Shown here: positions 11,800-60,150 of the stretch, in pieces
Position numbering within the stretch: position 1 is the first letter of the stretch
Layout of the letters: each line of letters opens with the position of its first letter
Assembly: GCA_011109175.1 (NCBI GenBank)
Contig: RDEW01000010.1
Span: 665,837-729,836, forward strand
Reading direction: 5' to 3'
DNA: 64,000 bases
DNA from: Dicyema japonicum
Lineage: Eukaryota > Animalia > Dicyemida
Notes under the pieces: generated by a model
What the model saw: only the letters and a program-made list of their open reading frames with translations
Database searches by the model: none
Told to the model about the DNA's origin: nothing
Position numbers and translations under genes: made by a program

Positions 11800-12295
11800 C
11801 CTCTAACCATAAACCTAAAAACCATCTCCAGAAGTTAAATGTATTGAAGTCATTTATAAAGAAGTGCCCCTTCCCTCTTGCGGACTGCACATCCAGAATG
11901 TATAGCAAGGTCATCGTTCCAACAATTGAATATGCCTGTTCCGCATAGAAATTTGAAATATTTTCTTCTAAACCTAATAAACTAAATTCAATCAGACGGA
12001 GAACTTGCATCCCACACAATTAGATCCTCCCTTCACTCTCCTTTCAGTGGAGTCCACGAGGAACCATACAAGCTGTTTCCTATGTTTCTGCAAATAACCA
12101 AAAACCCAATGCTCGATGCGATTGCTCTAGCAGAATAACGTCGATCGGTCCTAAAGAAGGAGTTCTTTTGTAGGCATTCGTGGAAGCTTTTGCTTTACAG
12201 TTGGACACAAGACTAAGCAAGGAGAGTCCGGAAGCTGGGATCACTTAGTGTTTTTTACACTTTCTTGGTGATTTTGGGTTCTCAAATAAATAAAC
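11800..12295 (+). mobile_element. I-group LINE 3' fragment ending EAGIT* with terminal stem-loop
   Basis: KLNVLK..MYSKVIVPTIEYACSA thumb region; CTGGGATCAC/GTGATTTTGG stem; (AAAT)n tail. Confidence 0.7.
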
Positions 12296-12309
12296 CTATA
12301 AACCAAAAA

Positions 12310-14863
12310 TCCTAATGCACGCCTACTATATGGAAACGGTCAATCTCTTGATGGAAAAAAAAGTTCACAATCTCTTTGCTGGAAGGGATCACCTCGAATC
12401 GATGTGAGATTAAGGATCTCTAAGAGCAACTTGTTTCCTAACGATCGACAGCTTCCTCTCAATAATTTTATTTTGGCTATAAACAAAATCCAATTTTCGA
12501 AAAGCTTTATTTGAAAGCTGTTAACGGACGTCACAAACTTGTGATGCCTTAACTAGTAAAAAAGAAATGAGGACTATTCTCAGGAGATTCACCAGACAAA
12601 TCACTGTAAACATAACGCTCTGGATGCACTTTGTCGTAGGAGATTTTGCGTCATCAGAAAAGCTTATTCGTCAAGTTATTATTATGTAATGTGGCTCGCC
12701 GACGACGTGGTGGCATTTGAAAAAAAGAACCACACTTTCCCCTATCTTCACGGGCGGACCAATAAGGAAGGCCTGCGCCGCTGCGGAGACGTTGAGGCAA
12801 ATTCTGGACCAGCCAGAATAGTCCAACTAAACATAAATGGAATCAAGAACAAAATACTCGAACTTCGGACATTTGTGAAAAAAAATCACATTGATCTGTT
12901 GCTAATTCAAAAGTCTAAACTTTTTCCAAAGAATTCAACACCAGTATTTCCGGGATTCACAGTAATTCGCCGTGACAAAATTGGCAAACTTAATGGGGGT
13001 CTTCTCACAGTTATCCGCAACGGCATTCCGTTTGAGGACTTAACTAACAATGCTTACACTATGCTTAAAGGATATGGAAATCTCGAACTTTTGGTTACCA
13101 AAATACGATTTCCAAGACTATCAATAATAATTGTCAACGCATTTCTCCCATTGCTGAGTTCCTGCTCGTCCAGTGCCCAAGACTCACTCCTCTCGCATCA
13201 CTGAAGGATGTGATTATCTGTCGTGACTTCAATGCGAAGCACCCACTGTGGCTGACAGGACAAGCCTACGACAAAAGAGGGAAGATGATAATTGAGGACC
13301 TCCACAGCCTATGTATACTCAACGATCCTGCATCTCATACAAGAACACCTACTCGACGTAACGATAAACCTTCTTCTATCGACATCTCATTGTCATCACC
13401 GTCCTTGGCCCCACTTATTGACTGGTCAGTGAAGTATGACAACAGGAGTGACCACAACCCAATATTTTTGGAGGTCAAAACAAGGTCACGGATAAAAGGA
13501 CTATGCCAAACAATAACTAACTACAGTCTTGCGAATTAAGGACGTCGATAATTGTATTGGACTATTAAATTTCCCCATTTTTCCTTCCGTCGAACAATTA
13601 GTGAAATGGTTCAACTCCATTATAAACGATGCGAAAAAAAAGTACATTCCTATGGGGAGACAACCAACGTCATAAAAACGTTTTAACACAACGACGAAAC
13701 ATCTGATCAGAGAACGAAATAATCTAAAGATTGTAAAATCGCCAACAGAAGAGAACATCAGGAAAAGAATTGAACAGAGAGATCGACAACAACATAAAGA
13801 CAGAAAATGCAAATAGATGGACGATACTGTCGAAATCTCTCTACAAAAACCCCCCAATGGAGAGAGTGTGGAAGTGTATCAAAAACATCAAAAATCCTCC
13901 CCAGAGAGAAAAGTTGAAGTCTACATAAAACCAGACACTCTGATAAAATATTACACATCTATATCCTACAGGAAGTTTTCAAAAGAACACCAAGTATTCC
14001 TGAAAAAGATTGAACCGAAACGCTCCGATGACTGGATCCTATTTACTAGTCAGGATGTTCGCAGAGCCATATCAAGGCCAACAACTCAGAAGCCAAGGAA
14101 CCAGACAACATAACCACATGTGAACTGAAGCACCTAGGGGTTCGACTCATCACAAAAGGGTTCGACTCAGTCCCTAGGAAACTCCTAGCAAAGAAAATAT
14201 ACGAAACCAACATCCATCCGAACCTGAAACTTTGGCTTGGAAACTTCCTAAATGGAAGACGAGCACAACTGTATCGAACCAAAAGTCTTTATGAAGAACG
14301 AAGCTATCTCTATTAACAAAACACCAAAGATTCTGGGAGTAACCTTTGATCGGGGACTCACCTTTATCCGGCATGTTGAAAACAAAGTAACTTCTGCTCT
14401 GAAAAAAATGAGAATTTTAAAAGTGCTCTCAAAAACACTTAGAGACCAAACCGATGTCTTTGCCACGATTTACAAACAATTTATCCGACCAACGATGACG
14501 TATGCAAGTCCTTCATGGGCAATGCAAATGTCACGATCTTCCTCATTGAAACTATCCGCAATCGAGGAGACTGCAATACTGTTAATTAGATCAGAACAAA
14601 AAATCCAACCCATAGAAAACGAACTACAACGGAAACTATTGAAGGAAGCTATTCTACCGATCTGCCCTCTATTCCAAATACAATCGAATTATCTACAATA
14701 ATACAAAAATTTTGAGTCGATACCAAGTCCAATTAGAAGAGCTGTTCAGGATTCTCGACCCCGCCGGACTCGTCCTCACCTTTGTCAGTCTGGGATCACT
14801 TAGTTAGATGAGAACTTTTATTTCTTTTTCTTTGAGCCAGTGATCCTGACGGTAATAATAATA
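12310..14863 (+). mobile_element. Ingi/Vingi-like non-LTR element: 2A-like peptide, APE, internally deleted RT
   Basis: LRRCGDVEANSGP then RIVQLNINGI, GGLLT, DFNAKHPLW, SSIDISL, SDHNPI; KILGVTFD, YKQFIRPTMTYASPSW; ends SGIT* + stem-loop + (AAT)n; 5' boundary approximate. Confidence 0.85.
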
Positions 14864-14879
14864 AGTTGTAAAGTTGCTG

Positions 14880-15750: not shown

Positions 15751-15899
15751 TAGTGAGGGAATTGTGAAGAAGGTGCATTCCAAACGCCTTAAAAAGATAA
15801 TCTAGACGCATTAAAAGATTCAATAATAAGTTAATGTTTGCTTTGAAATAATTGATTATTTTATTTTTAGACAATGATTGACATTGATTTCAGCTATCA

Positions 15900-16200
15900 A
15901 GGTAACGTCTGTGGCTCGCGACAGTTATGGGCCGATTCAAATATAGTTGCATAATCGAATAATTCTTTACTGCCCTGTGTCTTTTTCAAATCTTTAGTGG
16001 CACAATATCACCCATTTGTCTCAAAAGACACCCAGTGTCTGGGCAGAATCCGAATAGAACCTCTCTTTACTAAATTGGTGGAATTTCTACAATTAACTTG
16101 CTGCTTGGAAAGGACACTTTCTACACCGACTGTATGAACTGGATATGCTCTAACTAGACTCTATTCTCTGTTCGGTATATCCGAGGTTTAAAATAAATTA
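15900..16200 (+). repeat. LINE 3' tail remnant (family F-related) with GGATATGC/GTATATCC stem
   Basis: Weak similarity to 27710-27900(-); stem 16141-16182 followed by GAGGTT-AAAATAAA. Confidence 0.5.
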
Positions 16201-17337: not shown

Positions 17338-17399
17338 AAACAAAATTGATAATGCTTTTATTTAAATGTATTTAAATTATTTTCATTTATTATTAATTT

Positions 17400-19082: not shown

Positions 19083-19890
19083 ATTATTATCCAAAGATCA
19101 CTAGGTCAAAGAGAAAGAAGTAAAAGTTTTCAACTAACTACGTGATCCCAGACCGACAAGAGAAAGGACGAGTCCGACGGGGTCGAGAATCCTGTACAGT
19201 TCTTCTCATCGGACAAACTTTCTGTATGATTGTAGATATTTTTATAGTATATGGAAGAGGGCAGCTCGGAAGACTAGTCGCCTTTAAGAGTTTCAGTTGT
19301 AATTCTATTAAGAGATTTTCAACGAGTTGGATTTTGTGTTCTGGCTCAATTAATTTTATTGCAACCTCTTGGAATGCAAATTGTTTCATGGACGAGGAGC
19401 GTGAAATCTGATTGCCCACGATGGACTTTCATAGGTCATATTGGGTCAGATAAATTGTTCATAAACTGTAGCAAGGCTCCCAGTTTTGTCCTTAAGTGTT
19501 TTTGAGAGCACTTTTAGGATTCTCACTTTTATCAAAGCAGAAGTTACTTTGTTCCTGATCAAAGGTGAATCCTCGGTTTTTTGTTAATAGGAATATAGGC
19601 TCGTTCTTCATTAGGATTTTTTGTTCGACAGAGGTGTCTATTGTACGTGGTAAGGATTTTGTTGTTGATGTGTTGAGCCTCCGCTCAGTTCCAGCTTGTC
19701 AAGCATTTGTTGGGCGGACTGAGTTGCTGATTGAATGCTTCTGTTCTTGGAGGCAAGAATGATATCGTCGGCGTATGAGAGGATTAGAAAGTTCTCATTA
19801 CAGGTTTGTGGTATCTCGTTTATGTAGAGGTTGAAGAGTTGGAGTGACAGTGGGGAGCCTTGAGGGACTCCATTTGGAAGGTAGATTACA
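19083..19890 (-). mobile_element. Ingi/Vingi-like 3' fragment, same family as 12310-14863
   Basis: PNGVPQGSPLSL, SYADDI, VRILKVLSKTLRTK; ends RSGIT* + stem-loop. Confidence 0.85.
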
Positions 19891-19909
19891 GTCTTTTTCC
19901 AAGTATTAT

Positions 19910-21280
19910 TTTTTTTAAATCAGACCTGCTATGGCTGGGGTAGTCTCGCAATGAAAGTTTGTTTGTATGTACTCCTCGACGATGTCCCTAAAATAAGCAT
20001 CCACCATCGTCAAGCCTAATTCTCTGCAAGCTTTCCCTTTGAGAAAAGAGAGTCTTCTGACTGCCTCCAGGTTGTCCCAGTTGCCACTGCTCAACTGATT
20101 GTAGCAATCTGGGACCTGGGTTCAAACATGTTCGTGAAACTGGAGGAGAAGCAGTCCATGTTCGCTTTCAATGTTCCTAAGCACTCGATAACAAGTCCTC
20201 TCTGCCAAAGTCGTTTCGGTGGTTGGGATCGGTGGAGGTTGCTACTGACATTCCAAGTCCTAGGCAACCTCAATCAGAAAGATTGCCATTTTATTGGTCT
20301 TGAAACAACCAAAAGTTTTATGTTTAGAATTAAAATTTAGAATAATACAATCGGAATGCATATCACAGACTGCTTTAATGTGATCCCAGTGAAACTTCCG
20401 TGATTGAGAGTGTATCCTCTAACGATTTGCATGGAAATCCGCTCAATCAGCCATCCCTTTTCTCTGCTGGCCCTCGCAGAATCAAAGATGCTTAGCATAC
20501 ATTGCCTCAATTATAAATGAATAACTAGGTAATTTTTCACGAAAGAAATTATGGAAGCAGGGCGAGGTACTTTGGATGACTATTTCAAGACTCGTCCTCC
20601 AATAAATACTGGTGCCCAAACCTCGATGTGAATCACTCTAAAAGAGATGGTAGTTAATATACCAGTTTAAGTCTCAGCAGCCGTATCCCTTAGCTTTGTC
20701 TCTTTTAGGAATAAAACGTTCACCTTAACGGAAGCCTTTCGAGGGTTTCCCTCTTCATCTGGTAAATCTAGCGTTCGCCGAAATGACGTTGAGCAGCAAT
20801 TCGATCCAATCTTCTTATAACATCTCCAAGGGCATTATGGAAAAGTGGAACCACTACTGCTACTCTACCGTATGATGGATAGCGCTTTCATCACTATCAA
20901 CCCCAGGGGAGGTCACACGCTGTCTCCCATATAGTACATTCTCGAAACCTTTTGATAGATCAGGCACTTGGCATAGCTTGCCTCGTGTCCCTCATTGCCA
21001 CAGTTGACGCATTGAGAGACCTTTCCTTTGACTGACTTTCCTTGAACGGGGTAGACCGGACAAGAGGTGATTCGTCTTCTGGTTTTCACGTAGGTCACCT
21101 GCTCGCAGAGAAAACTGCCTACATTTGTAGCGAACAGACCCAACTTATTTCTCTTACCAAGCAACTCCAAATAGTTCGCTTGGTAGTAGCTACGTGACGT
21201 GCGCCAAGTTACCGTTCCCAGATTTCTGTTGTTCACCTTTGTTACTTCTTCCTCGTGATTCAGAGAATTAATAGACTATT
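19910..21280 (-). mobile_element. Fragmented LINE remnants: gag-like CCHC knuckle, APE start and thumb region
   Basis: CVNCGNEGHEASYAKC (20913-21236), VNVLFLKETKL near 20710, QLSSGNWDNLEAV near 20080; may be more than one element. Confidence 0.6.
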
Positions 21281-21284
21281 TTTT

Positions 21285-21610
21285 TTAATAAAATAATTTA
21301 AAAAAAAAACCAATGTCAATTGAGGAAGCCGAATGCGTGGATTGCGAACGAGTTTCCTCGGAGTATGGCATTCCAATCTTTTGTCTCATCCATAACCCTT
21401 CTCGTTGATCCCTTTTCTTTCTGGCAAGCATTCCTCCGAGTTTTCGCAAGAACTCAGCCGTCATTGGACCAACGGCTCCCGATGATTCGGTCGCAACAGG
21501 AATAAATCGGTAGCGGTCTCCGAGGCAAGAATATTTATTGATTTTTAGATTCTCCGCAGTCAAAGCAGCTGCTCCAGGTGTCTGAACCGATTTGAAATTA
21601 GACTAATTAT
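21285..21610 (-). mobile_element. CRE-like element 3' remnant (RLE end)
   Basis: KINKY..YRFIPVATESSG..FLRKLG..WMRQKIG. Confidence 0.85.
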
Positions 21611-21619: not shown

Positions 21620-21835
21620 TATCCAGATGTACTCCTGGAAAGTTCCAGTCTCCAATCCCTAATGCGCAAGAACTGAGGAACCTGCCGTCGTGACTACGAA
21701 GATCAGTTATTCGGTCGATGCGGCTTGTGTGGCGTCGAGGGAGAAGGATCGGGCCAGGTTGAGGTCTCTGCGGGATCGTGTCGGAATCACGTGATTAGTT
21801 AGTTTTTATGTTACCGTGGTCTTTGGTATTATTAT
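21620..21835 (+). repeat. Family B LINE tail
   Basis: Matches 25820-25980; ends GIT* + stem-loop. Confidence 0.75.
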
Positions 21836-21889: not shown

Positions 21890-22733
21890 TTAGTACCAAT
21901 ACGTCTTTTTTCTGATAGTAGTGTTTTTGGGAACTCCAAGTGAGGCCATAATGTCATCAGAGACAAAGTTAAGAGTTGGCTTAAAAGTTATCTCTGAGAC
22001 CAATTGGGGATTACTGTCCTTTGGGGCATCTGCGTGTTATACGACACACAACCAGTTAACTCTTCGGGGACAAAATATCCGTGAGTGGGATCAAGAATGT
22101 CAAATGCACTCTTCGGAATTGGAATTTCTATTCCACTCTTTTCAGAAATTCTGACGTAATTTCCGTTTTCTAAAAACCGCCAAGTAACGGAAGTCGATTT
22201 TCTGTTAATTGAAAAATCTCTTACTTGACAACCGGATCTACCAGTTTTACTTCATCGACTACACAGAGTGGCATCTCCTTAGATGAATATTGAGTTATTC
22301 CTCTGTAACCTCCAATAAATTCATATTTCTTAAATAATAAAGTAAATCAACCATATTTAGTCCTTTAACATAGCACCAGTTCCTCTCAGGAAAAATAGAG
22401 ACGACAATTCCGTGTTTTCCCTTATCTTTCCCAACCATAACTTCAACCTAAAGTGAACAGTCACAGTACAGTGTCCCCTCTGAAGATATCCCATTTTATG
22501 GACTCAACTAAATCAAATTTATATTTTTTATTCTTATTATTGTCCATGAATTTACTAGTCCAAGGTCGGGAATCATCAAAATAAAAGAATCTTTTTCCTT
22601 GATTGATGAGACCACGAATCGGTCGTTTAAACCTCTTTCTGAATGGTTCATAAGCCATTCTGTAAATAAAGTGCTGCATCCATCTCATTCCATCTGTTGG
22701 TACGGGATTTGAACGAAGGTATTTACTCCCCAT
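21890..22733 (-). CDS. MRPL24: Mitochondrial ribosomal protein L24 (uL24m), 5 exons
   Basis: WDIFRGDTVEVMVGKDKGKHG, ERNWCYVKGLN, VKLVDP, WRFLENGNYVRIS..SGIEIPIP, C-terminal KTYWY*; introns 22,23,23,23 nt. Confidence 0.94.
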
Positions 22734-23044
22734 ATGATTTACTACTAATTTTAATTTTGAATGTTTATAATATATTTTATTATGTTAAATATTATTTTTA
22801 TTTTGTACACGTCCTTCTTAAACATGTAGCCTTTGATAGAGATTCCGTAAAGAGCTCACCTTTATCCGGCATGTTGAAAACAAAGTAACAGAGTTTTGGC
22901 TCCCCTCATCTGACCAGCTTGAAATCAAATCCTTTCCGTGGCAGGACCACCAATGACTCTAAGGGACGTGTGGTAGCGCCTAACACTCTCAGTTAAACGT
23001 TTGATGGCAGTCGGACATGTTAATGAGGTAGTGAAGAAAAAAAA

Positions 23045-23364: not shown

Positions 23365-23869
23365 TTAATGAAGTAGTGATGTGGTTTATTTTCTCAAAAT
23401 ATTTTTAATAAAGTCTTTAAACCAGTTAACTGAGTTGATAATAGCGCAATAAACGTCTACTTTTCTTCATGACTGATATAAACTATTGTTTTTTATGTGA
23501 GCATGGACGAGTTGATTGATTTTTGGAACATCAAAAACCCGAATTTCTGAACAAAAGAAGTGTTAACTGTAAGTATGATCCGTCTTTGAATTCAGCCCAG
23601 TCAGAAATTGAAAGAACTTGGGGGATCCTCCATCAGAAATTAACTTCGAGTTCAGAGCCTTTTGCAATAGGATGATTAGTTATTCTCATGACTTCAGCGC
23701 ATGCCTGTGTTCGACTATCACGCTCTCCAAAGTTTTTTTAATCATTGTAGACTGAACGTATGCCCTTGTCAACCATGTTGCTAATAATATTACTTTTTAC
23801 ATTGTAATTTTAAAAATAATTGTTTTAAAGGCAGATAATCAAATAAAAAAATATAAGTGTAAAAAGTAA

Positions 23870-24159: not shown

Positions 24160-24310
24160 TTTATTGTAATAACTCCGGGAACACTGAGAAAGAAAGACAA
24201 AAGAGTCAAACAGTTAGGTGATCCCAGTCCCCGCAATCAATTGTGCCATACGACGTCTGTGATCTTCCATTGTCCCCACTACTTTCCGGAAGAACTTCGA
24301 GTGTTCCATC
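24160..24310 (-). repeat. LINE tail ending MEDHRRRMAQLIAGTGIT* with stem-loop
   Basis: CTGGGATCAC/GTGTTCCCGG stem and AAT-rich tail. Confidence 0.7.
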
Positions 24311-25619: not shown

Positions 25620-25985
25620 CCTTTTTTGAGTAATATATACAAACAATACACTGAACTATGCATCTCTTACGCATGTGATAACTGGGACCCATTCAGCTAT
25701 TGGACAAAAGTCTTAAAGATCTAGGATGGCCGAAAAAAGCCTCCAAAATCACGGAACGGTGGATTTCTTGCGAGTTCCAGTCACCAATGCCTCTTGAAGC
25801 CATGATACGAATGAACCATGGAAAACTCAGTCGTGACTGCGAAGTTCAAGCCATTCGGCCGATACGTGCTTATGTGGCGTCGAGGGAGGAACATCGGGCC
25901 AAGATGAAGTCTCTGCTAGAGCGTGCTGAGATCACATGATTAGTTAGTTTGTGTAACCGTGGCCTCTGGTGTTATTATTATTAAC
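25620..25985 (+). repeat. Family B LINE tail
   Basis: ORF 25700-25939 ending LLERAEIT*; stem-loop and (TTA)n tail. Confidence 0.75.
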
Positions 25986-26305
25986 AAAAATTATAGATAT
26001 AATATTAATAGAGATCCAATGCCTAGCCGGCATCTAAAAGGATCTACCTTAGTGAGTAGAGGCCCAATGCCTAGATCCAACTATTCATTCCACCGTGAGA
26101 CAATTTCGCTCCCAGGCAACGAGTTCTGAAATCGACCTCAGTTCCAAGAAAAGCCTCTCTTTATCACTGTGTTAGGGTTTTACCAAAAGATGTCAGGATC
26201 AAGTAATTAGTTTGGTTTTACCCTTAGTATTTGAAATAATTTAATTAATTAATTTAATACAAAAAGACCAGAATTGAAAATTATAGAGAATATCACCAAA
26301 CGTAA

Positions 26306-26817
26306 CTAGGAGGCAGGCACTGGGTCTTCCTCACCTGACACTTCCACAATCTCATTGTCGGCAGCATCATCAAAGTTCTTTTCTAGTTCAGGGATATCGT
26401 CATCATCCACTACAAGTAATGACCTCAACAACCTGGCTCAGATGGCTTCTCAATGTTCAAATTCTTCAGAAGATCTGGGAGAATGTCTGTTATAGTCTTC
26501 ATTGTAGAAGTCCCAGTTACAGCGTAGGTACCTGTCATTTTAGAGTTGTAGTGCTTCACATTGGACAGACAGATCACAGTACCGTCAGCTTTCACAATAT
26601 CAACCTACGTGGGTAACTAAAAATACCTCATCAACTCCAGGGTACAGTATCAGACCGAACTTCTTTGTTACAGCCTGGAGTTTCTTCTCATCAACTGTGT
26701 ACCTTTGCACGATCTTCTTCTTTCTCCTAACAGTTCCCTTAGATAAAGTAAACCCAGACAAACTTTCCCTCCAATTCTGACGTTGTTTTGTAGTTGTTTT
26801 AGTCTTTCGGGGTTCAT
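26306..26817 (-). CDS. BTF3: Nascent polypeptide-associated complex beta / BTF3, 4 exons
   Basis: MNPERLKQLQNNVRIGGKGTVRRKKK, DEKKLQ, PGVDEV, TDILPDLL, DDDDIPELEKNFD; introns 26,22,23 nt. Confidence 0.93.
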
Positions 26818-27007
26818 AACAAGAAACACAAGTTACACGAGTTTATAAACCTTTAATTTAAATATAAAATATTATTTAACTTTTATGTAATTTATTATAA
26901 AACTAAGAAGTTATGTATTCTGAATTGGCTCTGTTTCATAAGTAGACATTTTATAAGTCGGATTTTATTAAATAATTTAATAAAGTTTTCCACAAGTTTT
27001 TCAAATC

Positions 27008-27699: not shown

Positions 27700-28290
27700 T
27701 TATTAACCCCAGATACGCCGAGAAAGAAGTTAAGCAACTAGTTAAGTGTATCCAGTTTCCAGTTACAGAAACAGAGTCCTTCAACGTCACACAAGTCCAT
27801 ACAGAACCAGCATAAAAAGTAAAAGACGTCAATTCCTTGCATTTGTGGAAACCCCTTAGTGAAGTAGGGGAGAGCAAATGATCGTTTTTCGTGCTAGTCT
27901 GCTACTGGACGCCACCTGACTCAAGTGGATAAATGACGCTAATTTTGTAGGAAGGAGAAGAGGAGGAACGGACAAAACAAACAGAAAACTTCAACCAATT
28001 AGCCACACAGCACCACATGGCGCCACGCGGCGAAACAAGATATTGAAGCTCAATCGTCCCATATTTGCAACAGAATGATTCTCCTTTACTCAAATTTAGT
28101 ATGGGCAGGATTTGAACCAGGATCTTAATCCAACATTTCCTTTGTTCAGAACATCATGGTTTCGATGTCTCCAAATTCCAGCATCTCTTCCACGCCCAAG
28201 AGAAAAAGGGAAGACAAGGGCTTCCATACAACATGTACCTAAGTAGACATTCCGGGAATAGAGGTACGTCACTACGTCAATCAGTAGGCT
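27700..28290 (-). repeat. Family F short element or composite (GTGACGT 5' box, stem-loop 3' end)
   Basis: 27745-28040 matches 51270-51560; 28095-28280 resembles 48850-49035. Confidence 0.7.
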
Positions 28291-28831: not shown

Positions 28832-29494
28832 CCTCTACATCGCATGTAGTGCACAATTCAAAGGGACTTTCCTGAGATCGTTTGATTTATGGGAATATCA
28901 ATTTAAATAAAATAATTGTACTAAAATAAATCCTTGGAGTCTGTCTTTTATTTACGACAGTGGACCTTTTAGTATTATTTTATTGACAAAAATTCTTTCT
29001 ATAAATATTAAATATCATTTACAATCAAAACTCAATCAATGACGTAAAATATCCCAAATTACGTTAGCAATGACAGATTTTTATGGCAAACAATTAAATA
29101 TCATTTTGGTAACCTTTAGTGAAAATAATACCTGGGATGGAATTATCTCCAGATTTTTCAAGGGGCACCTGGATGCCATCAAGGTGGAGGAGAGGGTCAA
29201 AGCCTATATACAAACGCTAGTGTTACGGAAAACTGGATGTCCCTAACGATGATACATGAATTCGATTCCACTAAAACGGAGTCATGCGGCTTTTTGTCGC
29301 AGGTGGGATAAAAAAATTCATTTGTTATCTCTCACCCCATTGAATTAGAACAGGATGTTTTCTTTCATTAACATTAGTTCTGGATATACTTGTGTGATAT
29401 TGGAAGATCCACCTGCTTCTGCAACTGTGGGAATTGGATACAATTAACTCGGATTATTAAAAATTATTAATTTGTTATTACTTGATGTACTTTT

Positions 29495-29712
29495 TTGTGA
29501 AGATCCTCGACCCGGACCTACGCCTCTGGAGGCTCTTATGAGACTAGACTCCAGATCACGGGAAGTTGGCCCTGAAAATTCAGGCAGCCGTTCTGTACGT
29601 TCATACGCGGGCACGAAGGAAGAACAACGGGCAAAGATGAGGTCTCTGTTAGAATGCATCGGGGTCACGTGATACTTAGTTTTGTTTTACCGTGGTCTTG
29701 GGTTAAATAAAA
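29495..29712 (+). repeat. Family B LINE tail
   Basis: GPTPLEALMRLDS..LLECIGVT*; stem 29660-29700. Confidence 0.8.
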
Positions 29713-39729: not shown

Positions 39730-40100
39730 TATTATTAATATTATATAAGCACTTATCGCTATGTCATAGGACTTGACAAAGCATGCTGCAAACACGAGTT
39801 AGCAAATCAACTGGTTAGTTTCATCCACTTCCTCCTATTCAAAGCCGCAGTGCGCAACCAGTCAAGATCCTCTCCACTTCCAAGATGCCGTCCCATTTCT
39901 TGAGGTCCTCGTCGAGAACGACTGCCAGTGTCGTCCTTGGGCGACCACGGGAAACGGGGGGCCTCCAACATTAAGTAATCCCTCCATGGCTACGTTCGCG
40001 GGGGCATCTAGGTCCAGTCGCAGAATATGGCCGAAAGCCTCCATCGTGTATCCAGAATCTCATTAGAAATTTCTGAGGTCTTCGTCCTCTTATAAAGAAG
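39730..40100 (-). mobile_element. RTE 3' fragment
   Basis: FGHILRLDLDAPANVAME, RPRTTLAVVLDEDL; AAT-rich tail. Confidence 0.8.
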
Positions 40101-44889: not shown

Positions 44890-45281
44890 TAATTATTCGA
44901 CTGATTTAACAAAAAGTATTTAAAACAGCTAGACCGCCTAAGCAGATGGCTAATTTAAACAGATTCTCGTACGCGTGTGCTTCGTGGGGACCTTCATTAT
45001 CATGGACGAATACTAAGAAAATCGAGGACGTACAAAAGAAAGCTTTCAGAGTCACGGAGCGGTGGACTTGTGGGAGACACAGAACCGGACCGACTACTCT
45101 AGAGGCCCTCATAAAACTAAACTCTGGCATGCGGGAAGGTGGCCCTGCAAATACAGTCAGCCGCCCAGTACTAGCTTGTGTGGGCACGAGGGAGGAGCAC
45201 CGGGAAATTATGAGGATTTTGGTGGAACGCATCGGGATCACGTGATAGTTAGTTTGGTTTTACCGTGGTCTTGGATGTTAA
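44890..45281 (+). mobile_element. Family B LINE 3' fragment (RT thumb plus short C-terminus)
   Basis: YACASWGP..KKIEDVQKKAFRVT..ERIGIT*; stem 45233-45273. Confidence 0.85.
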
Positions 45282-48200
45282 TTATTATTATTAAGGCAAT
45301 TTACGAAAGCCATAATGATTATAGCCCCGCATGTGCAACACTCAAAGAAACAATATTTATAGTTTGTCTTTTCCATCTTCCTCTGTAGAATGCGAGTGAT
45401 CTCAATTCGTCAAGGTCGTCCCTCGTCTTTAGATTTTTTCTCACACGATTTAAGTCTTTGTTTAAGGCAGTCGGAAGTGTCGATCTAGGCCGTCCGCGGA
45501 AAGGTTTTTCGCAACTGTCAAAGTAATCTTCCATTGCTTTGTTAGCGGGTGCGTCCGGGTTCATTTTTAGTACATGCCCAAATAGCCTCCACCGGGCATC
45601 TATCACATCCTTGCTGATGTAAGAACACATACACTTGTTGTAGATACCAGTGGTTGATATTCTACGTGGCCACTCCATTCCGAGTAAGCTTCTTAGTTGC
45701 CTTCTATGGAACGAATCCAGTTTCAATAGTTCGTTGAAGGAACTTCCCCATGTCCCAGCGTTATACAGTAGGATCGGTTTCACAAACGCGTTGTAAAGCC
45801 TGCATCTGATGTCAATTCCAAGTCCTTTGGCCCTTAGCCATCCTTTCTTCAGTTTAGCCATTGCCGCATTTGCCAGTGTTTTCCTCCTTAGTACATCTTC
45901 AGCGTCTCCTAGTAGAGAGCCGAGCTTATTAGTACGTCTCCATCTTTCATGAGTAATATCGTCTTCTCTTTTGATTTCCGTAATTTCAGTTTTGTTAACA
46001 TTTACGCTGAGAAACCATTTCTCAAGCTCCGCAGGTGCATTTTCTAGCAGGTGTTGGAGTGCGGTCACATCCCGTGATACAAAATCCACATCATCCGCAT
46101 AAGATGTCTCTTCTATGTCTCCTATATAGCATTTACGGAGGTCGCGGAGTGCAGATTCAAGGTATATGGTGAATAGTAAAGGGGAGAGGGAATCACCCTG
46201 GGGTGTCCCAATCGTTGTTTTGAAACTGCGGGAAGTTGCTCCTTCTGTCCTCACAGATAGTCTTGTGTTCGCAAGTAGTAGTCTGATTATCCTAACCGAC
46301 GATTCATCCAATATTTGCTCAAGCACATTCATCAGTTTCTGTCTGTTTATTGAGTCGAAAGCTCTGGAGAGATCTATTCCCAACACGGTTGTTGCGCTCT
46401 TGAATCTTTGGTGCGTTGCGCAGCGCCATCTGTGGCTCCATACAATGTCTGCCGTAGACCTCCCTTCTCGGAACCCACTTTGACTTGCTGGTAGGTATAG
46501 ATCCGCCACACCCTTTATCCGGCTTAGTGCAATGTTTGCCAGCACCTTGCGTATCGAATTCAGAAGTATTATCGGGCGGAGATTTTCTACTGGTCCTTTT
46601 GATTTGTTCGGTTTTTGTATGGGTATTAATAATCCATTTCCAAGTCCTAGATCGGTATTAGTTTCAAAGACGTCATTTAGGGTTTTTGCAATTGTGTCGC
46701 TAAGTTTTTTTGGCCCATATTTTAGGAGCTCAGGGCTTATGTTGTCCGGCCCAGCACTCTTGTTGTTCTTCAGTTTATTTATCGCTAATTCCACCTCTTC
46801 CACTGTGATTGGGATTTTTAGCGCCTTTGCTTCTCCTTGGAAAGGGGGAAAGTCATTATTTTCTTTATTCAACAGTGTTTCGAAGTGTCGTGCAATCAAT
46901 TCTGCTTTTTCTTTCGGGTTACCCACGAATTTTCCATCTTTGTCTTTGATGTGAAGGATGTTTTGTCCTTTCTTTGTCCGCAGCAGCCGCAAAGCCGCAT
47001 ACATCCTTGAATTGTCTTTTAGGCATTCCACATCTTTTAATAGGGATGTAATAATTTCCCGTGAGTGTTTTCTGTTCATCTTTTTGATTTTCCACTTTAG
47101 TTCCCTTTGTTGGATATTAAGCTCTTTTTTTTACTCTCGTCTGACGTGTTTGCCGCTTTTAGTCGTAGCTCTCTGCAATGCTTTGCCATATTTGGCACGT
47201 TCGGGTGGTGATCCAATTTTAGGGCGTGATGATTTCGGACTCCAAGGCATATTTTGGCCGACTTGGAGATTGCCTGTTTTGTTTGATCCCACAGAGTTCG
47301 TACTGATGATTCCGGTGCGGTTTTCACCATAAGAGTCTCGATTTGTTCGTGATATTTAGCTCTACAAGTTGGCTCTAACCACAATTTTTCTGTCTGAAAG
47401 TATATATTGGGTCTTTGTCTCGCCTTCTTCGCGTTTTCAATGTATTTTTTCCCAGTCAGGTGCTTTTTTACACAAAGTTTTGCAATGACGATCCTGTGGT
47501 CGCTGTCGGTTGTTGTTCCCTGGTAGGAACGTGCATCATTTATCAGGTGTTTATCAGACTTTCGGCAGATAATGTAGTCGATTTGATTATATATATTCAC
47601 GGTCTCTCCGACAGAGTTTTTTCTTTGTCCGTGCCACGTCGTCTTGTGGCAAGCTGAGTGCGTAAAGGCCGTGTTGCACAGGAAAAGGCTATTTGCCTCG
47701 CAGAAGTTTACCAGAGAGGCTCCAGATGCATTTCTCCTTCCGCGCCCGTGTCTTCCAATAGAGGATTCTTCGGGCCCCATTCGCATTCCGGCCTTTGCAT
47801 TCATATCTCCCGCAACAAAGACAAGAGACGAGGAAGCATTGTTAGAGTATGTGCTTGATAGTTCTGAGTAGAATTCCTCGAGTTCACGGGGTTCTTGATT
47901 ATTCGTTCACAGTGTGGTGCATAGACATTTATGACAGTTAATAGACTCTTGGACGGGCATAGTTCATTTAGTTTGACTTGTAGGACACATATTCGGTCGT
48001 TGACTCTCCAATAGCGATGTAATTTTTTGAGGTAATCCACGTTTAGGGCAAATCCCATGCCATAGTGCTTGCATTCAGTTGAGAAGAAAATCAGTAGGTA
48101 GTTGTTCCATGTCTCATCGCGTCCATTTTCGATTTTCGTCTCATAGATATTTTGTATTTCTTGAGATCGTCACAAAGTACTTTCCTTGTCCAATCTTTCG

Positions 48201-48559: not shown

Positions 48560-49040
48560 TATTTTCGTAAAACATAAAATTATAAAATTTATTTGACAAA
48601 ATGATAAAATCTCGCCTTTTCAATGTACGACAAAAGGCATGATAGTGTAACGACCATGTCATTAAGCTGAGGGAGGTGTCTTCCTTGGAACTCAGCGTGC
48701 ACGGATACTTTCTCAAACACAAATTCGCAAGTCATCTCCATGAATAGTTCCGCAGCAAGTAAAGGGAGAATACACATATATAGAATCAAATTAACCATCA
48801 TCCTATATGTGGAGTTTCTAACAGATGATCCTCCTAGCTTTTTTCCATTTTGAGTTTAATACGAATCAAATTCAGATCCTAAGAGCATCCGACACTATCT
48901 TTGTTCATAACTTCGGGTTTCTGATGTCTCTAAAAAGTCATCTTGTCTATGATCATGAAAAGAAAGAAGACAAGACTTTTCATTCATCATGAAGCTAAGT
49001 AGATATTCTGTGAAATAGAAATACGTCACCAATCCAACCT
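48560..49040 (-). repeat. Short element with GTGACGT 5' box, related to 28095-28280
   Basis: Shared TTTGTTCA.AAC, GAAGACAAG and CTAAGTAGA.ATTC blocks; 3' boundary uncertain. Confidence 0.5.
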
Positions 49041-49169: not shown

Positions 49170-51225
49170 ATTGGTTAGCTTTGAATATCACGTGGCGTGT
49201 TGTTTGCGGTTGTATTTTCTGCTTAATCAGGCTTATTGAAGAATTTTTGCTAGTTTAATAATGTGGTGTGTCTTGTCGAAAGTTTGTTTATTGAAGAAGC
49301 AGGTTTTTGGGCGCCATGCGTTTTTGGATGACTTCATCAGTAAGAAAGATATTCCATGAAACATTTGTTCCCGGGGTGACAAGCGAAAGCTCAGGAGCTG
49401 ATGTTTTGATTGTACCTTGTCCTTCCACGTGGAATGCGTCAGGCTGTAAAGGAAGTCTTTGAAACCTTTATCTTCTTCGATTTCCCTTGACTGTACCCCA
49501 AAAATGTGATTCCCTTACAGGATTTACTAAATCCTTCTATATGTTTGACCTTATTTCTGGATCGTCCATCGATCACGCTACATCTGAAAAAATTCTACTT
49601 CTTGCGTCGAGGTTACGAGTACAGAGGCGTATTCCTTTGAAGATCCTAAGGTCCTTGAGGGGGTGGTGGCTGAGACTCTTATCCGCGTTATTGACAAGGC
49701 TACCTCGTCTTTGGAGACTGGATTGGATTTTATTATTTCTCTTTCCCCTTATTGCAATTGGATCGGACTCTAATCGCCGAGGAGTTTCTACAGCTGCAAT
49801 CTATTCACCCTCTCTCCATTAGATCTGAGAGAACTTTCAATCACATTATATTGGCCCTCCCGATGTTATTCACCGAATCTGATGTAATGGCTGGGATAAA
49901 ATCCTTTTCACCAAGCATCAACAGGGGTTTGGATATTGTAAGCATTGGGCATATCAGAGACCTTTCGTCATTCTTAACTTGAGACCGGGAGCTCACCTTG
50001 TATCATCGTTAACCAAACTCTTAAACCTGTTTGCACCCGGAATATCCTTCCATCGACGGTAACTTTTTTTCTACCTATTGTTTCGCTTCTTGAAGCCTGG
50101 TGGGGGAGTCAGGCCTATTGCCCTTGAGAACTTGCTTCAAAACTTTCGTGCTGGCATGTCATCGATGATCTGTTTAGCGAGCTGAAAGCTTACAATTCGG
50201 AGTGGGCATACGCAGAGGGTGCGAATCAGTTATTCATTATACTCGTTCCTTTGTGAACTATTGTTAAGAGGATAACCCTGGATTATTGTGAAGTTGGACG
50301 TTTCCAACGCCTTAATGTCTTTTATTCCAGATGCTGCTATTACCGACTTGGAACTCTATGATATTTGGCTCACCCATNTATTTCCAGCAGGATTATCCCT
50401 CATATTCTTATAAGCATATTCCTCATTCTGACTATTCTTCCAGAATTTCTGCAAATCAGTTCTGGACGGCAAAATTGCTGATAGGTTGAAGAGTTGGTCG
50501 CTCTTGAAGAAACCCCTTCTTGATACACACAGACTGAGGAACTAGACCAACGTTATGTACAAGAATACTTATTCGACCCTTATGGAAACGGACGAATGCA
50601 CCATAGGGATTGCATTCTGTCAGCCTCGTCCCCCTAACGTGTTCCCATCATCAATTGGTTCCCTTCTAGAACAGAACGCTCTCAAAAACGGGATATCCGT
50701 ATCGGGATCGACCTGTGCCAGCCTTATCTTGTTGTGAACTGAAAGGACTTCACCCACTCTCTTGCCGTCTCAACAGTGGCCGGTTCCCGAGATATGCTGC
50801 CATCAACGGGGTTGTGAATCGCTTTCTCTGGAACCGGTGGAACTGGATCGTGGAGATGGAAAGACCCCGGTCGGGGTAACTGTCTTCCACCTTTCGCTTG
50901 ATTTGGGATAAGGCCTGCACCGACACCTTTTCCCAGTCGAGACTTGCAGGTTCCGCGTTGAAAGCTAAGGAAGCTGCTCGGAATTTCGAAAATTTCAAGA
51001 TAAAAAATACGACAGCCTCTCCGCCAGATTCCATGTAGAGCCCCTTGTCGTCGAGACGAGCGGAGTTTTCGGGCCATATACGGTCTCTTTTTTAAGATCG
51101 CTTGGGTCAATGATATGGAAAGTGAGTAATGAGCGCCTAGAAACCGAGTGGCAGTTCCAAAAGATTTCTCTGGCAGTTGTCAAAGGAAACAGCCATTCAA
51201 TCCTATCAGTTGGATGATTATTTTG
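49170..51225 (+). mobile_element. CRE-like element with decayed PHD finger and internal deletion
   Basis: CFDCTLSFHVEC remnant; KPGGGVRPIAL, VKLDVSNA; RRLDGMTV, FHVEPLVVETSG, FQKISLAVVKGNSHSI. Confidence 0.85.
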
Positions 51226-51239
51226 ATTGTATTGTTACG

Positions 51240-51565
51240 TAATAAACTGTTTTTGTATTAAAAAAATAAGTGTATAAGTTTCCACTGTTACAGAAACATA
51301 GTCTTTCAACGTCACACAAGTCCATGCAGAACCTGCATAAAAGGTAAAAGACTTCTATTCTTTGCAGTTGTGGAAACCCATCAAGTGGAGTGCGGGAGAG
51401 CAAGTGATTTTTTCGTTTCAGCCTGGCACTGAGCGCAACCTGAGACAGATGGATTACATGACGCCACTCTGGTAAGAAGGGGAAGAAAAGGAACAGACAA
51501 AACAAACATAAAACTTCAGCAAATTACCCACGTAGCACCTCATGGCGCAACGAGGTGAAAATCAC
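51240..51565 (-). repeat. Family F copy
   Basis: Colinear with 27745-28040. Confidence 0.8.
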
Positions 51566-53230: not shown

Positions 53231-53309
53231 CAAGAAAAAAAGAAATAAAGAACACTGGGAAAAGTTAAAACTTTGACATTATAGGAATAGAACAATGAAA
53301 TATTAGCTG

Positions 53310-54490: not shown

Positions 54491-54690
54491 TAATTTAAAT
54501 AAAAAACAGATTTTTTTATATTTATTTAACACCCAAGACCACGGTAAAACCAAAACTAACTATCACGTGACGGTATAGATATAAATTTATTAGAAAAATA
54601 ATTTTTTTTATTTTAAATTTAAATTATTTTTTAATTTTTAAATAAAAGTTTTATAATCTAAAATTCGTTAATCTTATTAAATTTAAAATT

Positions 54691-56195
54691 ATGATGTATA
54701 AACTTTATGAGTATATAACACAAGTTTTTGCTAATTTAAACATGTAGATTTATGGAATTCAGTTTTATTCAAAATTTATTCTATTGACAGTGATATACAG
54801 AATAATATGCTTTAATTTGATTAAGAAAATTACTCCTCGTTACATTTTTAGCATTTCAGTTGGATTATTTTTTATTTTCGAGAATTTGGCATGTTGTTTT
54901 TTTAATTAGAATTAATAGAGAAGGATTGCACTTGCCGATTTACTCTCTGCTGATATATTTGATTATATTGTACTTCCCTCATAATAGGAAAGTCGCCTGC
55001 ACTTTTGTTACGTCGTTCATCTACTTGGAGGCGCTTCATTTCTCTAAAGCATGGACAAATTACCTAAGATTAGACAAGCCGGCATTGCTAAGTAAATATT
55101 AAAAATATTTAAGCATAATATGGTTGCTGTACAAAAAACAACAGCTCTGATAATGTCATACAACGATACTTACTACAACGATAAGGTTGAAGAAGAAAAT
55201 AAAAAATATGTCCTCAAGTTTTCTCATCTTTTATTTTAGGAAACCTCCGTCCTTTTTACAATTTATTGCTTACATTTTCAGCTTCCATGGAGCGTTAATG
55301 GGTCCCTTCTTTCACTTCAATGAATACATTGACTTCATCGAATCTGTCCAAGTAATCCCTTTTACTTTCACGTAAAGAAACCGAAATTTTGCTTAAAGGT
55401 TGTGTCAATCAAGTTGACCTCTTCATATGTCTTAGCAATTTTAATCAAATGGCTGTATGGTTACGCAAATCCGTGTGGATTCACGGTTTTAGTTTGTTTT
55501 TATTATGTAGGACAATCAACTAAAATAAATTCATTTTTTTCATTTTTTCGATATTATTTTTACATATATCTGTGCACTCTTACAGTCAGAATAGAGTACT
55601 ACTTTTTTTGGGTGTTATGTTAGCGTGTAGTTTATTTTAGCCGATGGTCTGTTTAATCTACTAGGATTTGGATACGATAAGGACAAAGACACGTGGTCGA
55701 TGACGACGAACGTGAATATTTTTGGTTTTGAGGTATTTTTAATGTCAAACTAAGTTCCCTACGTCAATTCAAAAAAGCTGTGTCTAGTTGGAACACGTGC
55801 ACAGTGAAATGGCTTAAGTATATAATATACAGTAGAAATATCCCGTATAAACGAATTATGCTGTTCCTGTTTTGTGCAGCCTGGCATGGAGTTTACCCAG
55901 GTTACTACATTTTTTTCATAAACTTGTATATGTTTATATGCAGTGCCATCAAAGTACAATATTATTTATCATGTGTAGATGTTTAAGTTCGCAAAACGAA
56001 AAAATATATCACCAGAATTGTCAGCAGCAGTGCAATCAATTTGGGCTTGGATTTCTCTTGGTTACATCTCTCTTCCATATGTTGTCCTAACACTAACAAA
56101 TACGTTTGAAATTTACTGGTAAGAAATATATTTATTGAAGGTCAATTGGTTTTTCGCTACATTTGGTAGCTTTAATACCCATTTTAGTACTTTAA
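54691..56195 (+). CDS. MBOAT-family lysophospholipid acyltransferase (MBOAT1/2-like), multi-exon
   Basis: PSFLQFIAYIFSFHGALMGPF, RIEYYFFW..ADGLFNLLGFG, SSWNTCTVKWLKYIIY, CAAWHGVYPGYY; tiny introns; one probable 1-nt deletion in the T-run near 54870; start codon tentative. Confidence 0.88.
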
Positions 56196-57471: not shown

Positions 57472-58408
57472 CTAGAAATTAATTTTATTATTTTTTAAGC
57501 TAAGATATTAATACAACCTGTTTGTTGATAATATTTGACTATGAAATTTTCAACGCTTTTTATATCAGATACCGTTTATCGCTGATAAATATTATTTTGG
57601 AAATAACTAACCACCAATTTGTAAAAAAAATATTTATTGTAAGTTCAATAAGTAACCATTGCAAAAGATAATTTAAAGGATTTACGTATTATTTAAATAT
57701 TCAAATTCATTCAGGTTTTGAGTTAAAAAATGATAATAAACAAATGGTTCTGAAGAATTTTAAAAAGAAAAAATATAAATAAACTTTGTTTTTATTCTTT
57801 AAAATTAAAAATGGAATTTTTTATATTTTTATTTTAAGATTATGAATATGATAATCATTTAGATTAAAAAGATTACATTTAATTGTGATAAAATTAAAAA
57901 CTTTTGATACAAACTATTTTAAGTGAAAATAAAATCAAAGTCTTTTATAACAAATCATGTTCCAGCTGCTAAGATACAGTGGGAATTCACTTGGACGATG
58001 GCCATTCCTAAGCGAAGTAAAATAATATTTTTTAAGCATTATTATATTTAAGTATCTCAATAAAGAACAAACTGTTTAACCATAAAAGCAAAATTAAAGT
58101 TAATATTTTAAGCTAATTGTACGAATTATCGATCTTATTTTCTTCAACAATAATTTATTTACCTAGATAAATCGAACCTTCAATTATTCAATGAAATATA
58201 AATCTTATTGTCTTAAATTATTATAGTTGAATGTGGAAATCACTAATTTTTACTGAAAATAAATTGAAATATAGATAGTTATTTTGTATTCTTTGTGTCT
58301 TAAATTTAAAGTATTAATATTTCGTTTTCATCAAATCGATGAAACTTTCAATCTGGATTGTATTATCTTATATGATCTCGTTGATTCTGCGGTCTATCTT
58401 TAATTTCC

Positions 58409-60150
58409 TAGTATCAATAAGTCATGTTCAAAACCTCATTACAAACTCAAGAAACTCATTAGCCACGGGACCCGATCGGATCAGCATATTCCACCTAAAA
58501 CACCTCGGTCCAAACGGGCTCTTGGCACTTAAAGATATCTACAAATTCTCCATCAACAGGTGTTTCATCCCGATGTTATGGAAGAAGTCGAACATTATCC
58601 CAATACTCAAGAACAACAAAGCCTCCTCCTTGCCCTCTTCGTTCAGGCCAATTTCCTTAACATCTGTTGTCTCAAAAATCCTCGAAAGGATCATTCTTAA
58701 CGAAATCACCCCCTACCTCGACCTCTCCGACTCACAACATGGTTTCCGTCCTTTACACTCGACCACCACGCACTTACTGACACTAACCCAATACATCTCC
58801 AACGGTTTCAACAACTGCAAACCCCCGGAACGAACTGTCTTGGCCTCTATTGACCTAACTAAAGCTTTCGACAGAATCTCCCGTGTGGTCCTCTGCAACA
58901 AGATCTATTCTTCAAATATTCCCTCTGTATGGAAGTCATGGCTCACAAATTTCCTCTCGGGAAGACTGGGTCATACGTGTCTATATTCAAATCTATCAAG
59001 ATATCGACTCCTACCAAACGGTGTTCCCCAGGGATCAGTCCTTTCACCCTCACTTTTCAACCTTTACGTCAAAGACATCCCAACAACCCAAAATACGTTA
59101 CTATTGACATATGCCGATGATCTAGTAATCGCATCCAGGAGTGGCGATGTTCGACTGGCCACCGAAAAAGTGCAGTACCACCTGAACTTGCTATCCGACT
59201 GGATGAACTTAAACTGGATGAGTGTTTCCACCTCGAAGTCATCAGCTACCCTGTTCACAACCGATCGAAGACAATTCAACCTAAACCCCACACTCTCGTT
59301 GGGTGACGAACCACTCCCCTTAAATAAATACCCGAAGATCCTTGGAGTTGTCTTCGATCCTTCACTCTGTTTCAACAGACAAGTGGAGGAAGTAATGACA
59401 AAAGCCAAGCGGAAACTTAACATATTACGGGCAGTAGCTGGCCACTCAAACGGTCAGCAAAAAGAAAACTTAACTCTTCTCTACAAACAGTTCATCAGGA
59501 CTACACTCAACTACGCCTCACCAAGTTGGGCCCCCTCAATCTCCTTGTCCCTTTCTCAAGAACTGCAGAAAGTGCAAAACTCGGCGCTGAGAATAATAAC
59601 TGGCTTTAAAGTCAACCCCCACCGACCATTTACATTGGGAGTCGAAAATCCTCCCGCTCTATGACCACCTGGAAATGCGTAATTTACAATTCCTACGGCA
59701 GTCGTTCGACCCGAATCACCCAGTTCACGCTTGCTAAGTAACAATAACCGCAGATACATACGCAGGACCCTCTTTGACCTACAAAGAGCCTTGTCGAAGA
59801 TCACCCCCCCTCAAGAAGACTCAACTTGGACCCGCCGAATCCATGATTTCATCTCAACACGGGCCATTAGGACACTTCAATATAACAAAGTCTTGGAGCG
59901 CTTCTCCCCTGATATCAGTCCAACGGAACAATCGCTCCCGAGGAAGATCAGAATCGGACTGGCTCGCCTACGATGTGGACACTACCCTTTTCTGGCTGGC
60001 AGAGTAGTTCGGGACCTTTTTCCCTGCCCTGGACCACCGGATGCAAAGGTCGAGGATCTCTGGGAGCGGCCTGTCCGGACTGCACGCTCTCTGATGGTCG
60101 CCGGCTTCCACTTGCTGGCGAAGCCGGGGTTAATAATTTAATTTATTTAA
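58409..60150 (+). mobile_element. 5'-truncated Vingi-like non-LTR element with intact RT core, flanked by an 83/84-bp direct repeat
   Basis: ATGPD, FRPISLTS, QHGFR, IDLTKAFD, GVPQGSVLSP, YADD, KILGVVFD, YASPSW, LARLRCGH, DLWERP; flanks 58326-58408 and 60151-60234. Confidence 0.93.

What the first reader, a model, noticed from the sequence alone, without database searches (positions are those of the whole stretch)
12235..60135. Covarying 3'-terminal RNA stem-loop shared by otherwise dissimilar LINE tails
Seen: about ten elements with different upstream sequence end in the same architecture: an 8-10-bp stem whose 5' arm encodes the last residues (usually GIT), a 20-40-nt U-rich loop opening with stacked stops (TAGTTAG, TGATAG, TAACTAG), the 3' arm, G(G)TT, and an AAT/AAAT tail. 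Arm pairs: TGGGATCACT/AGTGATCCTG (14791-14848), GGGATCAC/GTGATCTT (19149-19094), CGGGATCACG/CGTGGTCTTG (45233-45273), CGGGGTCACG/CGTGGTCTTG (29660-29700), GAGATCAC/GTGGCCTC (~25928-25966), CTGGGATCAC/GTGTTCCCGG (24227-24175), CTGGATACAC/GCGTATCTGG (27755-27709), GGATATGC/GTATATCC (16141-16182). A shorter-loop variant CCGGCTTC/GAAGCCGG ends the Vingi-like copy (60101-60127). Changes are compensatory or G-U, implying RNA-level selection. Knowledge: stringent LINEs recognise 3' stem-loops. Inference: a common RT-recognition signal straddling the stop codon, which could couple translation termination to cis-capture of the RNA and allow cross-mobilisation between families.
Basis: partly seen in the sequence, partly recalled or inferred. 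Interest (0 to 1): 0.78.

Follow-up and report, generated by a model that had tools for sequence, protein, structure and literature searches.

The report
Stop-straddling tail hairpin of Vingi-like LINEs
Several diverged families of jumping genes (LINE retrotransposons) in this genome end in the same small, predicted RNA hairpin that begins in their last three codons, likely the handle by which their reverse transcriptase recognises its own RNA: a new variant of a known signal, with no evidence yet that it is tied to the end of translation.

Summary
The hairpins are real. All 9 quoted arm pairs are at the stated places. They belong to 6 families, not about ten unrelated elements; a seventh family ends at 12236. 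Eleven of 19 related ends keep both arms. In codon register 98 of 110 pairs are standard, and G-U outnumbers A-C 14 to 1 with one copy per family, which points to selection on the sense RNA. True two-sided changes are few and come from about three stem types; the covariation signal depends on the alignment. Two families fall in a Vingi-type clade by tree, two more carry a Vingi/Ingi-like RT thumb, and the rest cannot be placed. RTE elements in the same window have their own unrelated stop-straddling hairpin, and 14 outside Vingi/Ingi-type ends show no general version, so this is no pan-LINE signal. Best reading: a lineage-specific, stringent-type 3' recognition stem-loop that overlaps the ORF because the 3' UTR is very short. 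Coupling to termination and cross-mobilisation are untested. Side finding: families A, B and G lack about 100-150 C-terminal residues, yet A is under coding selection.

The parts
45233..45273 (+). Family A tail hairpin; 10 of 10 standard pairs; stop at 45243
44964..45242 (+). Family A body: 5'-truncated RT thumb plus short C-terminus (91 codons from thumb motif to stop)
29660..29700 (+). Family A tail hairpin (second subfamily)
25927..25967 (+). Family A tail hairpin (third subfamily), one internal A-C
21782..21824 (+).
7788..7830 (+). Family A tail, 3' arm decayed
54526..54574 (-). Family A end truncated inside the 5' arm
26193..26222 (+). Decayed family A end
14791..14848 (+). Family B tail hairpin, 38-nt loop with a predicted inner stem; stop at 14801
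12560..14800 (+). Family B body: frameshifted APE endonuclease, RT fragments, thumb, short C-terminus (100 codons)
19093..19150 (-). Family B tail hairpin, second copy (72% identical over 592 nt)
   Evidence: recovered by a model built without B, E 0.0034
19141..19919 (-). Family B second body with RT motifs
60406..60433 (-). Family B 5' arm and stop, no 3' arm
12236..12276 (+). Family G tail hairpin
11826..12005 (+). RT thumb fragment upstream of the G tail (weak, E 0.001)
24176..24226 (-). Family C tail hairpin, one U-U; C-terminus related to family A
9242..9325 (+). Family C second C-terminus and 5' arm; stop and 3' arm decayed
27710..27754 (-). Family D tail hairpin with three two-sided changes against B
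8988..9027 (-). Family D loop and 3' arm only; this arm is a perfect complement of the 5' arm at 27755
51267..51560 (-). Family D body and 5' arm remnant
29377..29449 (+). D-related body end and 5' arm remnant
16140..16183 (+). Family E tail hairpin; stop shifted by one base
60101..60127 (+). Family F (Vingi-type) short hairpin, 8 bp; no stop at the loop start in this copy
58318..60141 (+). Family F body: RT and frameshifted C-terminal domain with part of the Cys/His region missing

Best explanation
The last three codons, stop and 30-55-nt 3' UTR of a local group of LINE families (Vingi-type where they can be placed) carry a predicted RNA stem-loop under selection on the sense strand, which is likely the stringent-type handle that the element's own reverse transcriptase binds to start copying at the AT-rich tail just behind it. 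Shown: the arms, their register with the stop, the G-U bias, a few compensatory changes, and the position next to the tail. Inferred from L2 elements: ORF2 binding and priming in the repeat tail. Inferred: the overlap with the ORF follows from a very short 3' UTR, and the module is shared by descent, kept while the bodies diverged and while A, B and G lost their C-terminal domain. The near-invariant 5' arm plus the following YTAG would be the part read by sequence.
For: Register table: 98 of 110 standard pairs; one copy per family 59 of 63, G-U 14 vs A-C 1 (binomial p 0.0005). 3'-arm G bases opposite C are kept in 10 of 11 ends at two positions, while C bases opposite G often become T. GGG and ATC codons recur in A, B, C and G although they are 24 of 124 Gly and 57 of 177 Ile codons in the window's LINE ORFs. 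Two-sided changes at stem positions 4-7 between GIT, GYx and GFH types. Alignment A5: 85% paired, covariation 0.464 vs 0.291 +/- 0.041, 0 of 500 shuffles. The sister copy at 9027 lacks the A-C mismatch seen at 27755. F and B fall in an RNase-H-less clade, SH-aLRT 100, quick tree. Family A ends sharply at 45281 in run X1. Vingi has SINE partners that share its tail (PMC3747384 table, passages; PMC5786205, passages). Stem-loops are required in ZfL2 (PMC4176376, section 13).
Against: No binding or mobility data. Covariation rests on about three stem types and vanishes in alignments A6 (376 of 500) and A7 (55 of 500); RNAalifold found no structure on A6, where MAFFT had shifted rows out of register. 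Family A stems are weak, and other folds win in 80-nt windows for most A copies. Coding constraint on Gly could explain part of the G-U bias. A and G cannot be placed firmly: the best A thumb hits score 33 bits (Vingi-type) and 32 bits (a CR1-like row). C, D and E have no detected RT. Outside Vingi/Ingi-type ends show no general stop-straddling stem (14 loci, permutation p 0.69).
Confidence: 0.62

Rival explanations
1. Translation-gated capture. The ribosome melts the stem until it terminates; the hairpin then folds and is taken by the just-released ORF2 protein, and the shared arm lets one RT move several families.
For: The stop opens the loop in 9 of 11 two-armed ends. The common loop variant in family A changes TAG to TAA and stays a stop. 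Arms of A, B, C and G pair interchangeably. RTE ends here show the same geometry with other sequence.
Against: Geometry alone gives this pattern for any compact element. E's stop is shifted and F has none there. The second stop is not conserved in frame. Vingi-1_Acar donors with only UTRs are mobilised in trans (PMC13708176, passages). ZfL2 specificity is in the loop (PMC4176376, section 13), and loops differ here (21-38 nt).
Confidence: 0.12
2. Tail capture. One 3' module was swapped onto unrelated LINE bodies, possibly from different clades, by template switching, so the sharing is horizontal rather than by descent.
For: The last 22 residues before the shared tripeptide do not align between A/C, B, G and D (z below about 2), yet B, C and G share a 10-nt 5' arm exactly. 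A and B thumbs share 7 of 28 residues (counted). A's clade is unresolved. Tail exchange is reported for SINEs (PMC5786205, abstract and passages).
Against: Loops and 3' arms differ between families, so any swap is old. A25928 carries the YKQ motif of the F/B subclade. F's end aligns with the natural end of outside Vingi proteins.
Confidence: 0.12
3. No selected RNA structure. The arms are a relic inverted repeat kept by Gly-Ile-Thr coding constraint, C-to-T bias and occasional template-switch repair.
For: Folding z-scores are modest. The arms contain short palindromes. 8 of 19 ends are partial or decayed. Covariation depends on the alignment.
Against: The 3' arm is non-coding yet keeps its G bases and gains an A-to-G change in family A, against the AT bias. 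Synonymous positions in the 5' arm are fixed. Decayed ends are expected of dead copies.
Confidence: 0.08
4. The hairpin serves RNA 3'-end formation or stability for transcripts that end in TAA/TAAA repeats, and is not an RT handle.
For: It sits directly before the tail. An unrelated hairpin occupies the same place in RTE ends.
Against: A near-invariant arm sequence suggests reading by a protein. Published cases at this position are RT handles (PMC4176376, PMC1636434 abstract).
Confidence: 0.06

Closest known systems
Stringent-type LINE 3' stem-loops: ZfL2-1, ZfL2-2, UnaL2 (L2 clade)
   Same: Stem of 8-10 bp right before a short-repeat tail; wobble and mismatch tolerated in the stem.
   Different: Here the 5' arm is the last three codons and the stop opens the loop; the loop is 21-38 nt rather than short; one arm sequence is shared by families about 25% identical in the thumb; function untested.
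Vingi clade non-LTR retrotransposons (sister of Ingi, no RNase H)
   Same: F and B group with RNase-H-less APE-RT elements; F's C-terminus aligns with theirs; short 3' UTRs and triplet-repeat tails also in outside loci.
   Different: A, B and G have about 91-103 codons after the thumb motif against 200 in F and 207-250 in 8 outside proteins, and lack the Cys/His domain; the hairpin sequence was not found in 27 outside loci. No named Vingi reference was available, so the name rests on architecture.
Plant L1/SINE 3' hairpin with compensatory changes (Ohshima, PMC3747384)
   Same: Covarying 3' hairpin with conserved loop and flank bases shared between elements.
   Different: Other clade; in the 3' UTR; there the stem bases vary, here the 5' arm is nearly fixed.
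RTE-clade 3' ends (this window; BovB from recall)
   Same: A stem whose 5' side lies in the last codons, with the stop at the top of the arm, then TAA repeats. That the BovB ORF runs into its tail hairpin is recalled, not checked.
   Different: Unrelated sequence, with an outer GCAC/GUGC stem and a bulge; not matched by model R1.

Membership tests
Stringent-type LINE 3' stem-loop | Stem-loop at the 3' end directly before the repeat tail | tested here: met
Stringent-type LINE 3' stem-loop | Structure conserved by compensatory and wobble changes | tested here: inconclusive
   Met, not; about three independent stem types
Stringent-type LINE 3' stem-loop | Lies wholly in the 3' UTR with a short loop | tested here: not met
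   5' arm is coding in A and C; loops 21-38 nt
Stringent-type LINE 3' stem-loop | Required for retrotransposition and bound by the cognate ORF2 | not testable with these tools
   Needs mobility and binding assays
Vingi clade | APE endonuclease before the RT | tested here: met
   B: PF14529 E 5.7e-14 at 13069-13536. F, A, C, D, E and G copies show no endonuclease region in the window
Vingi clade | RT groups with RNase-H-less elements next to RNase-H-bearing (Ingi-like) ones | tested here: met
   F and B only; quick tree, SH-aLRT 100, no named Vingi reference
Vingi clade | Same placement for families A and G | tested here: inconclusive
   Thumb fragments only; Vingi-type and CR1-like hits score alike
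Vingi clade | No RNase H domain | tested here: met
   No RNase H by Pfam in the F and B pieces or by motif in the F RT and B thumb pieces; A and B have about 100 codons or fewer after the thumb
Vingi clade | C-terminal Cys/His domain as in outside relatives | tested here: not met
   Absent in A, B and G; partly deleted in the F copy
Vingi clade | Single long ORF | tested here: inconclusive
   No intact full-length copy in the window and no genome held
tRNA-derived SINE (considered for D) | Pol III A and B boxes or a tRNA-like head | tested here: not met
   One B-box-like word at 28118 without an A box; no tRNA found
Any Rfam 15 family | Match to a covariance model | tested here: not met
   0 matches at E up to 1

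The most novel reading that the evidence does not exclude
A set of LINE lineages that have shed the C-terminal Cys/His domain but remain under coding selection share one sequence-specific RNA key that can fold only after the ribosome leaves the stop codon. Termination hands each RNA to the RT, and the common key lets these families, and a full-length Vingi, mobilise one another.
Probability: 0.12. Interest if true: 0.72.

Novelty: new variant of a known kind. Interest (0 to 1): 0.36.

Why it matters
It adds a predicted 3' recognition structure for the Vingi group, for which eight literature searches returned no such description in the held library; the paper that defined Vingi was not held. 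Vingi is used for RNA-only gene writing with donors flanked by UTRs (PMC13708176). If in some lineages the handle starts inside the ORF, a 'UTR-only' donor would lack half of it. The overlap also makes the old question of how LINE proteins prefer their own RNA testable by moving one stop codon. The short-C-terminus families are natural tests of whether the Cys/His domain is needed.

Tried and rejected
No genome is held, so no genome-wide tail alignment could be made. Rfam: no match. Homologue searches with the A C-terminus and the B thumb, and a profile of A/C C-termini against 1.84 billion representatives, found nothing; these are weak negatives. The ESM Atlas gave only hits under 0.9. The tail pattern is absent from viral contigs. 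The 72 loci from prokaryote genomes and 4 from viral contigs were mostly distant RTs and gave no usable tails. By eye several outside Vingi ends seemed to straddle the stop, but the shuffle and permutation test did not support this (14 loci, mean z +0.09, p 0.69; 1 of 14 at p below 0.05); only L087 shows the same register. The narrow read-laying on the A hairpin listed no substitutions at all, not even the known loop variant, so it says nothing about the arms. In one search none of the 40 shown substitution rows fell in the arms, but 32 rows were hidden and only 1.3 were expected (p 0.26). No RNA holder listed. D as a tRNA-SINE was rejected, and D as an RT thumb was not detected by profile; its coding frame stays unresolved. 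An alternative frame for the B C-terminus was not excluded: substitutions in its last 30 codons are flat across positions. The careful tree did not finish. Three look-ups of earlier findings returned nothing.
Full report
Setting. The window is repeat-rich DNA (37% GC) from a eukaryote: Pfam finds a GPN-type ATP-binding protein and an MBOAT fragment above cut-off, and NAC and mitochondrial L24 fragments below it. It holds many broken non-LTR retrotransposons: RTE-like, R4-like, CRE-like and Vingi-like (these clade labels come from recalled motifs, except where the tree is cited). No genome is held.

Observation. All 9 quoted arm pairs are in the sequence. BLAST, motif and profile searches extend the set to 19 related ends in 7 families: A (7 ends), B (3), C (2), D (4), E, F and G. 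Eleven keep both arms; 8 are truncated or decayed. With the 5' arm taken as the 10 nt before the stop and the 3' arm located by eye, the 11 give 98 of 110 standard pairs, 27 G-U and 5 A-C; with one copy per family, 59 of 63, 14 G-U and 1 A-C (p 0.0005). As a chance control, each of the window's 7,377 stop triplets was given its best stem: 10 of 14 ends are equalled by about 4% or fewer, and 4 are not. Against shuffled downstream sequence 7 of 14 reach p below 0.05. Folding is modest: z -1.0 to -2.8 for 8 tightly cut tails and +0.9 to -2.8 for 16 fixed windows, where most A copies prefer other folds.

Covariation. In codon register there are three stem types: GIT (A, B, C, G), GYx (D, E) and GFH (F). 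Between them positions 4-7 change on both sides. Own-arm pairing beats permuted pairing for 7 families (46 of 5,040 as good) but not within A, B, C and G (18 of 24). The tool count on alignment A5 gave 85% paired and covariation 0.464 against 0.291 +/- 0.041, 0 of 500 shuffles, with the two B rows out of register. On A6, where MAFFT shifted rows, and on the model-fitted A7, the signal was absent (376 and 55 of 500), and RNAalifold found no structure on A6. So the main pattern is a nearly fixed 5' arm with a wobbling 3' arm, plus a few true compensations. Two points favour nucleotide-level constraint over peptide constraint. The GGG and ATC codons recur across A, B, C and G although they make up 24 of 124 and 57 of 177 such codons in the window's LINE ORFs. 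The non-coding 3' arm keeps G opposite C in 10 of 11 ends at two positions.

The stops. The GIT frame is coding in A: no stops in that frame across four pairwise comparisons, with the best synonymous share in three of them, and 11 of 18 major variants among contigs of run X1 are silent third-position changes. It is probably coding in C (4 silent vs 3 replacing), unresolved in B's last 30 codons, and unresolved in D, E and G. The stop opens the loop in 9 of 11 ends; E's is shifted by one base and F has a sense codon there, at the point where outside relatives end. Two in-frame stops occur only in some A copies; the following YTAG is better read as a loop motif.

What the elements are. In a quick RT tree, F and the B thumb fall in a 24-row clade of RNase-H-less elements (SH-aLRT 100) beside RNase-H-bearing ones, which fits the description of Vingi (PMC13708176, passages). 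A and G carry an RT thumb; A's best hits are Vingi-type, with a CR1-like row one bit behind, so their clade is likely but not settled. C is related to A by its C-terminus (z 4.5). D and E show no detectable RT. Family A is abundant: 5,422 contig pieces of X1 lie on 451 bases and summed depth is about a thousand times that of the flank, which the tool warns is no copy number. It ends at 45281.

How far the signal reaches. A covariance model built without B recovers B19149 (E 0.0034) and, weakly, B14791 (E 0.41), and hits no RTE, R4 or CRE end. It finds nothing below E 0.28 in 27 outside loci. Fourteen outside Vingi/Ingi-type ends have 3' UTRs of 12-99 nt but no general stem across the stop (p 0.69); L087 alone has the same register. 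The four RTE ends of the window share a different predicted hairpin. In the two with an intact frame the stop sits at the top of its 5' arm (z -2.2 and -1.4; the other two -1.3 and +0.2). Overlap with the stop is thus a recurring outcome in compact elements here, and the sequence is clade-specific.

Mechanism. Most likely the stem-loop is the stringent-type handle. The RT binds it, reads the fixed arm and loop motif, and starts cDNA in the AT-rich tail a few bases downstream. The structure and its constraint are shown; binding and priming are inferred from ZfL2, where the stem is needed as structure and the loop gives specificity (PMC4176376, abstract and section 13), and from UnaL2 (PMC1636434, abstract). 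A ribosome at the stop would cover the 5' arm (general knowledge), so the hairpin would fold only after release.

Known and new. 3' stem-loops are described for L2, R1, R2, RTE, Tad1 and plant L1 (PMC5135761 and PMC3747384, passages). Vingi shares tails with SINEs and makes internally deleted derivatives (PMC5786205, passages). The defining Vingi paper was not held, and no supplements were read; either may already describe the tail. Eight searches (listings only, except the papers named) showed no Vingi tail hairpin and no link to termination. Verdict: a real feature and a new variant of a known kind; interest 0.36.

Noticed in passing
window 45290-45345 (-), 1225-1290 (-), 11738-11795 (+), 39738-39800 (-): Four RTE-like ends share their own predicted 3' hairpin (outer GCAC/GUGC stem, bulge, inner stem); in two with intact frames the stop sits at the top of the 5' arm.
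   Followed up: partly
window 44970-45242, 14501-14800, 11826-12245: Families A, B and G stop about 91-103 codons after the RT thumb motif and lack the C-terminal Cys/His domain; A's short C-terminus is under purifying selection and has no database relative.
   Followed up: partly
window 45319-47906 (-): Nearly intact RTE-like element (endonuclease plus 603-aa RT frame, one frameshift) lying tail to tail with the family A end at 45273.
   Followed up: no
window 54526-54574 (-) and 8988-9027 (-): Two copies are 5'-truncated inside the hairpin itself, as if reverse transcription stopped there.
   Followed up: no
window 45238-45247 and 21787-21796: In some family A copies the end of the 5' arm and the stop form a short perfect palindrome centred on CACGTG, which offers a competing fold.
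   Followed up: no
window 40260-42923 (-): R4/Dong-like element with RT and a restriction-like C-terminal region.
   Followed up: no
window 21285-21602, 37341-37685, 50969-51217, 62194-63475: Several CRE-like fragments; the one at 62194 carries a weak PHD-finger match.
   Followed up: no
window 27740-28272 (-), 48887-49029, 23498-23564: Family D body of at least 580 nt with unresolved coding frame and a lone B-box-like word at 28118.
   Followed up: partly
L087:3520-3563: An outside Vingi-type element with a perfect 9-bp stem in the same register around its stop, unrelated in sequence.
   Followed up: partly
L005, L010, L012, L018, L025, L061: Eukaryote-type LINE RT sequences inside prokaryotic MAG records, probably contaminating contigs.
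   Followed up: no
window 10191-11027, 21988-22784, 26600-26842, 55732-55986: Host gene pieces (GPN-type ATP-binding protein, mitochondrial L24-like, NAC-like, MBOAT) interleaved with the repeats.
   Followed up: no
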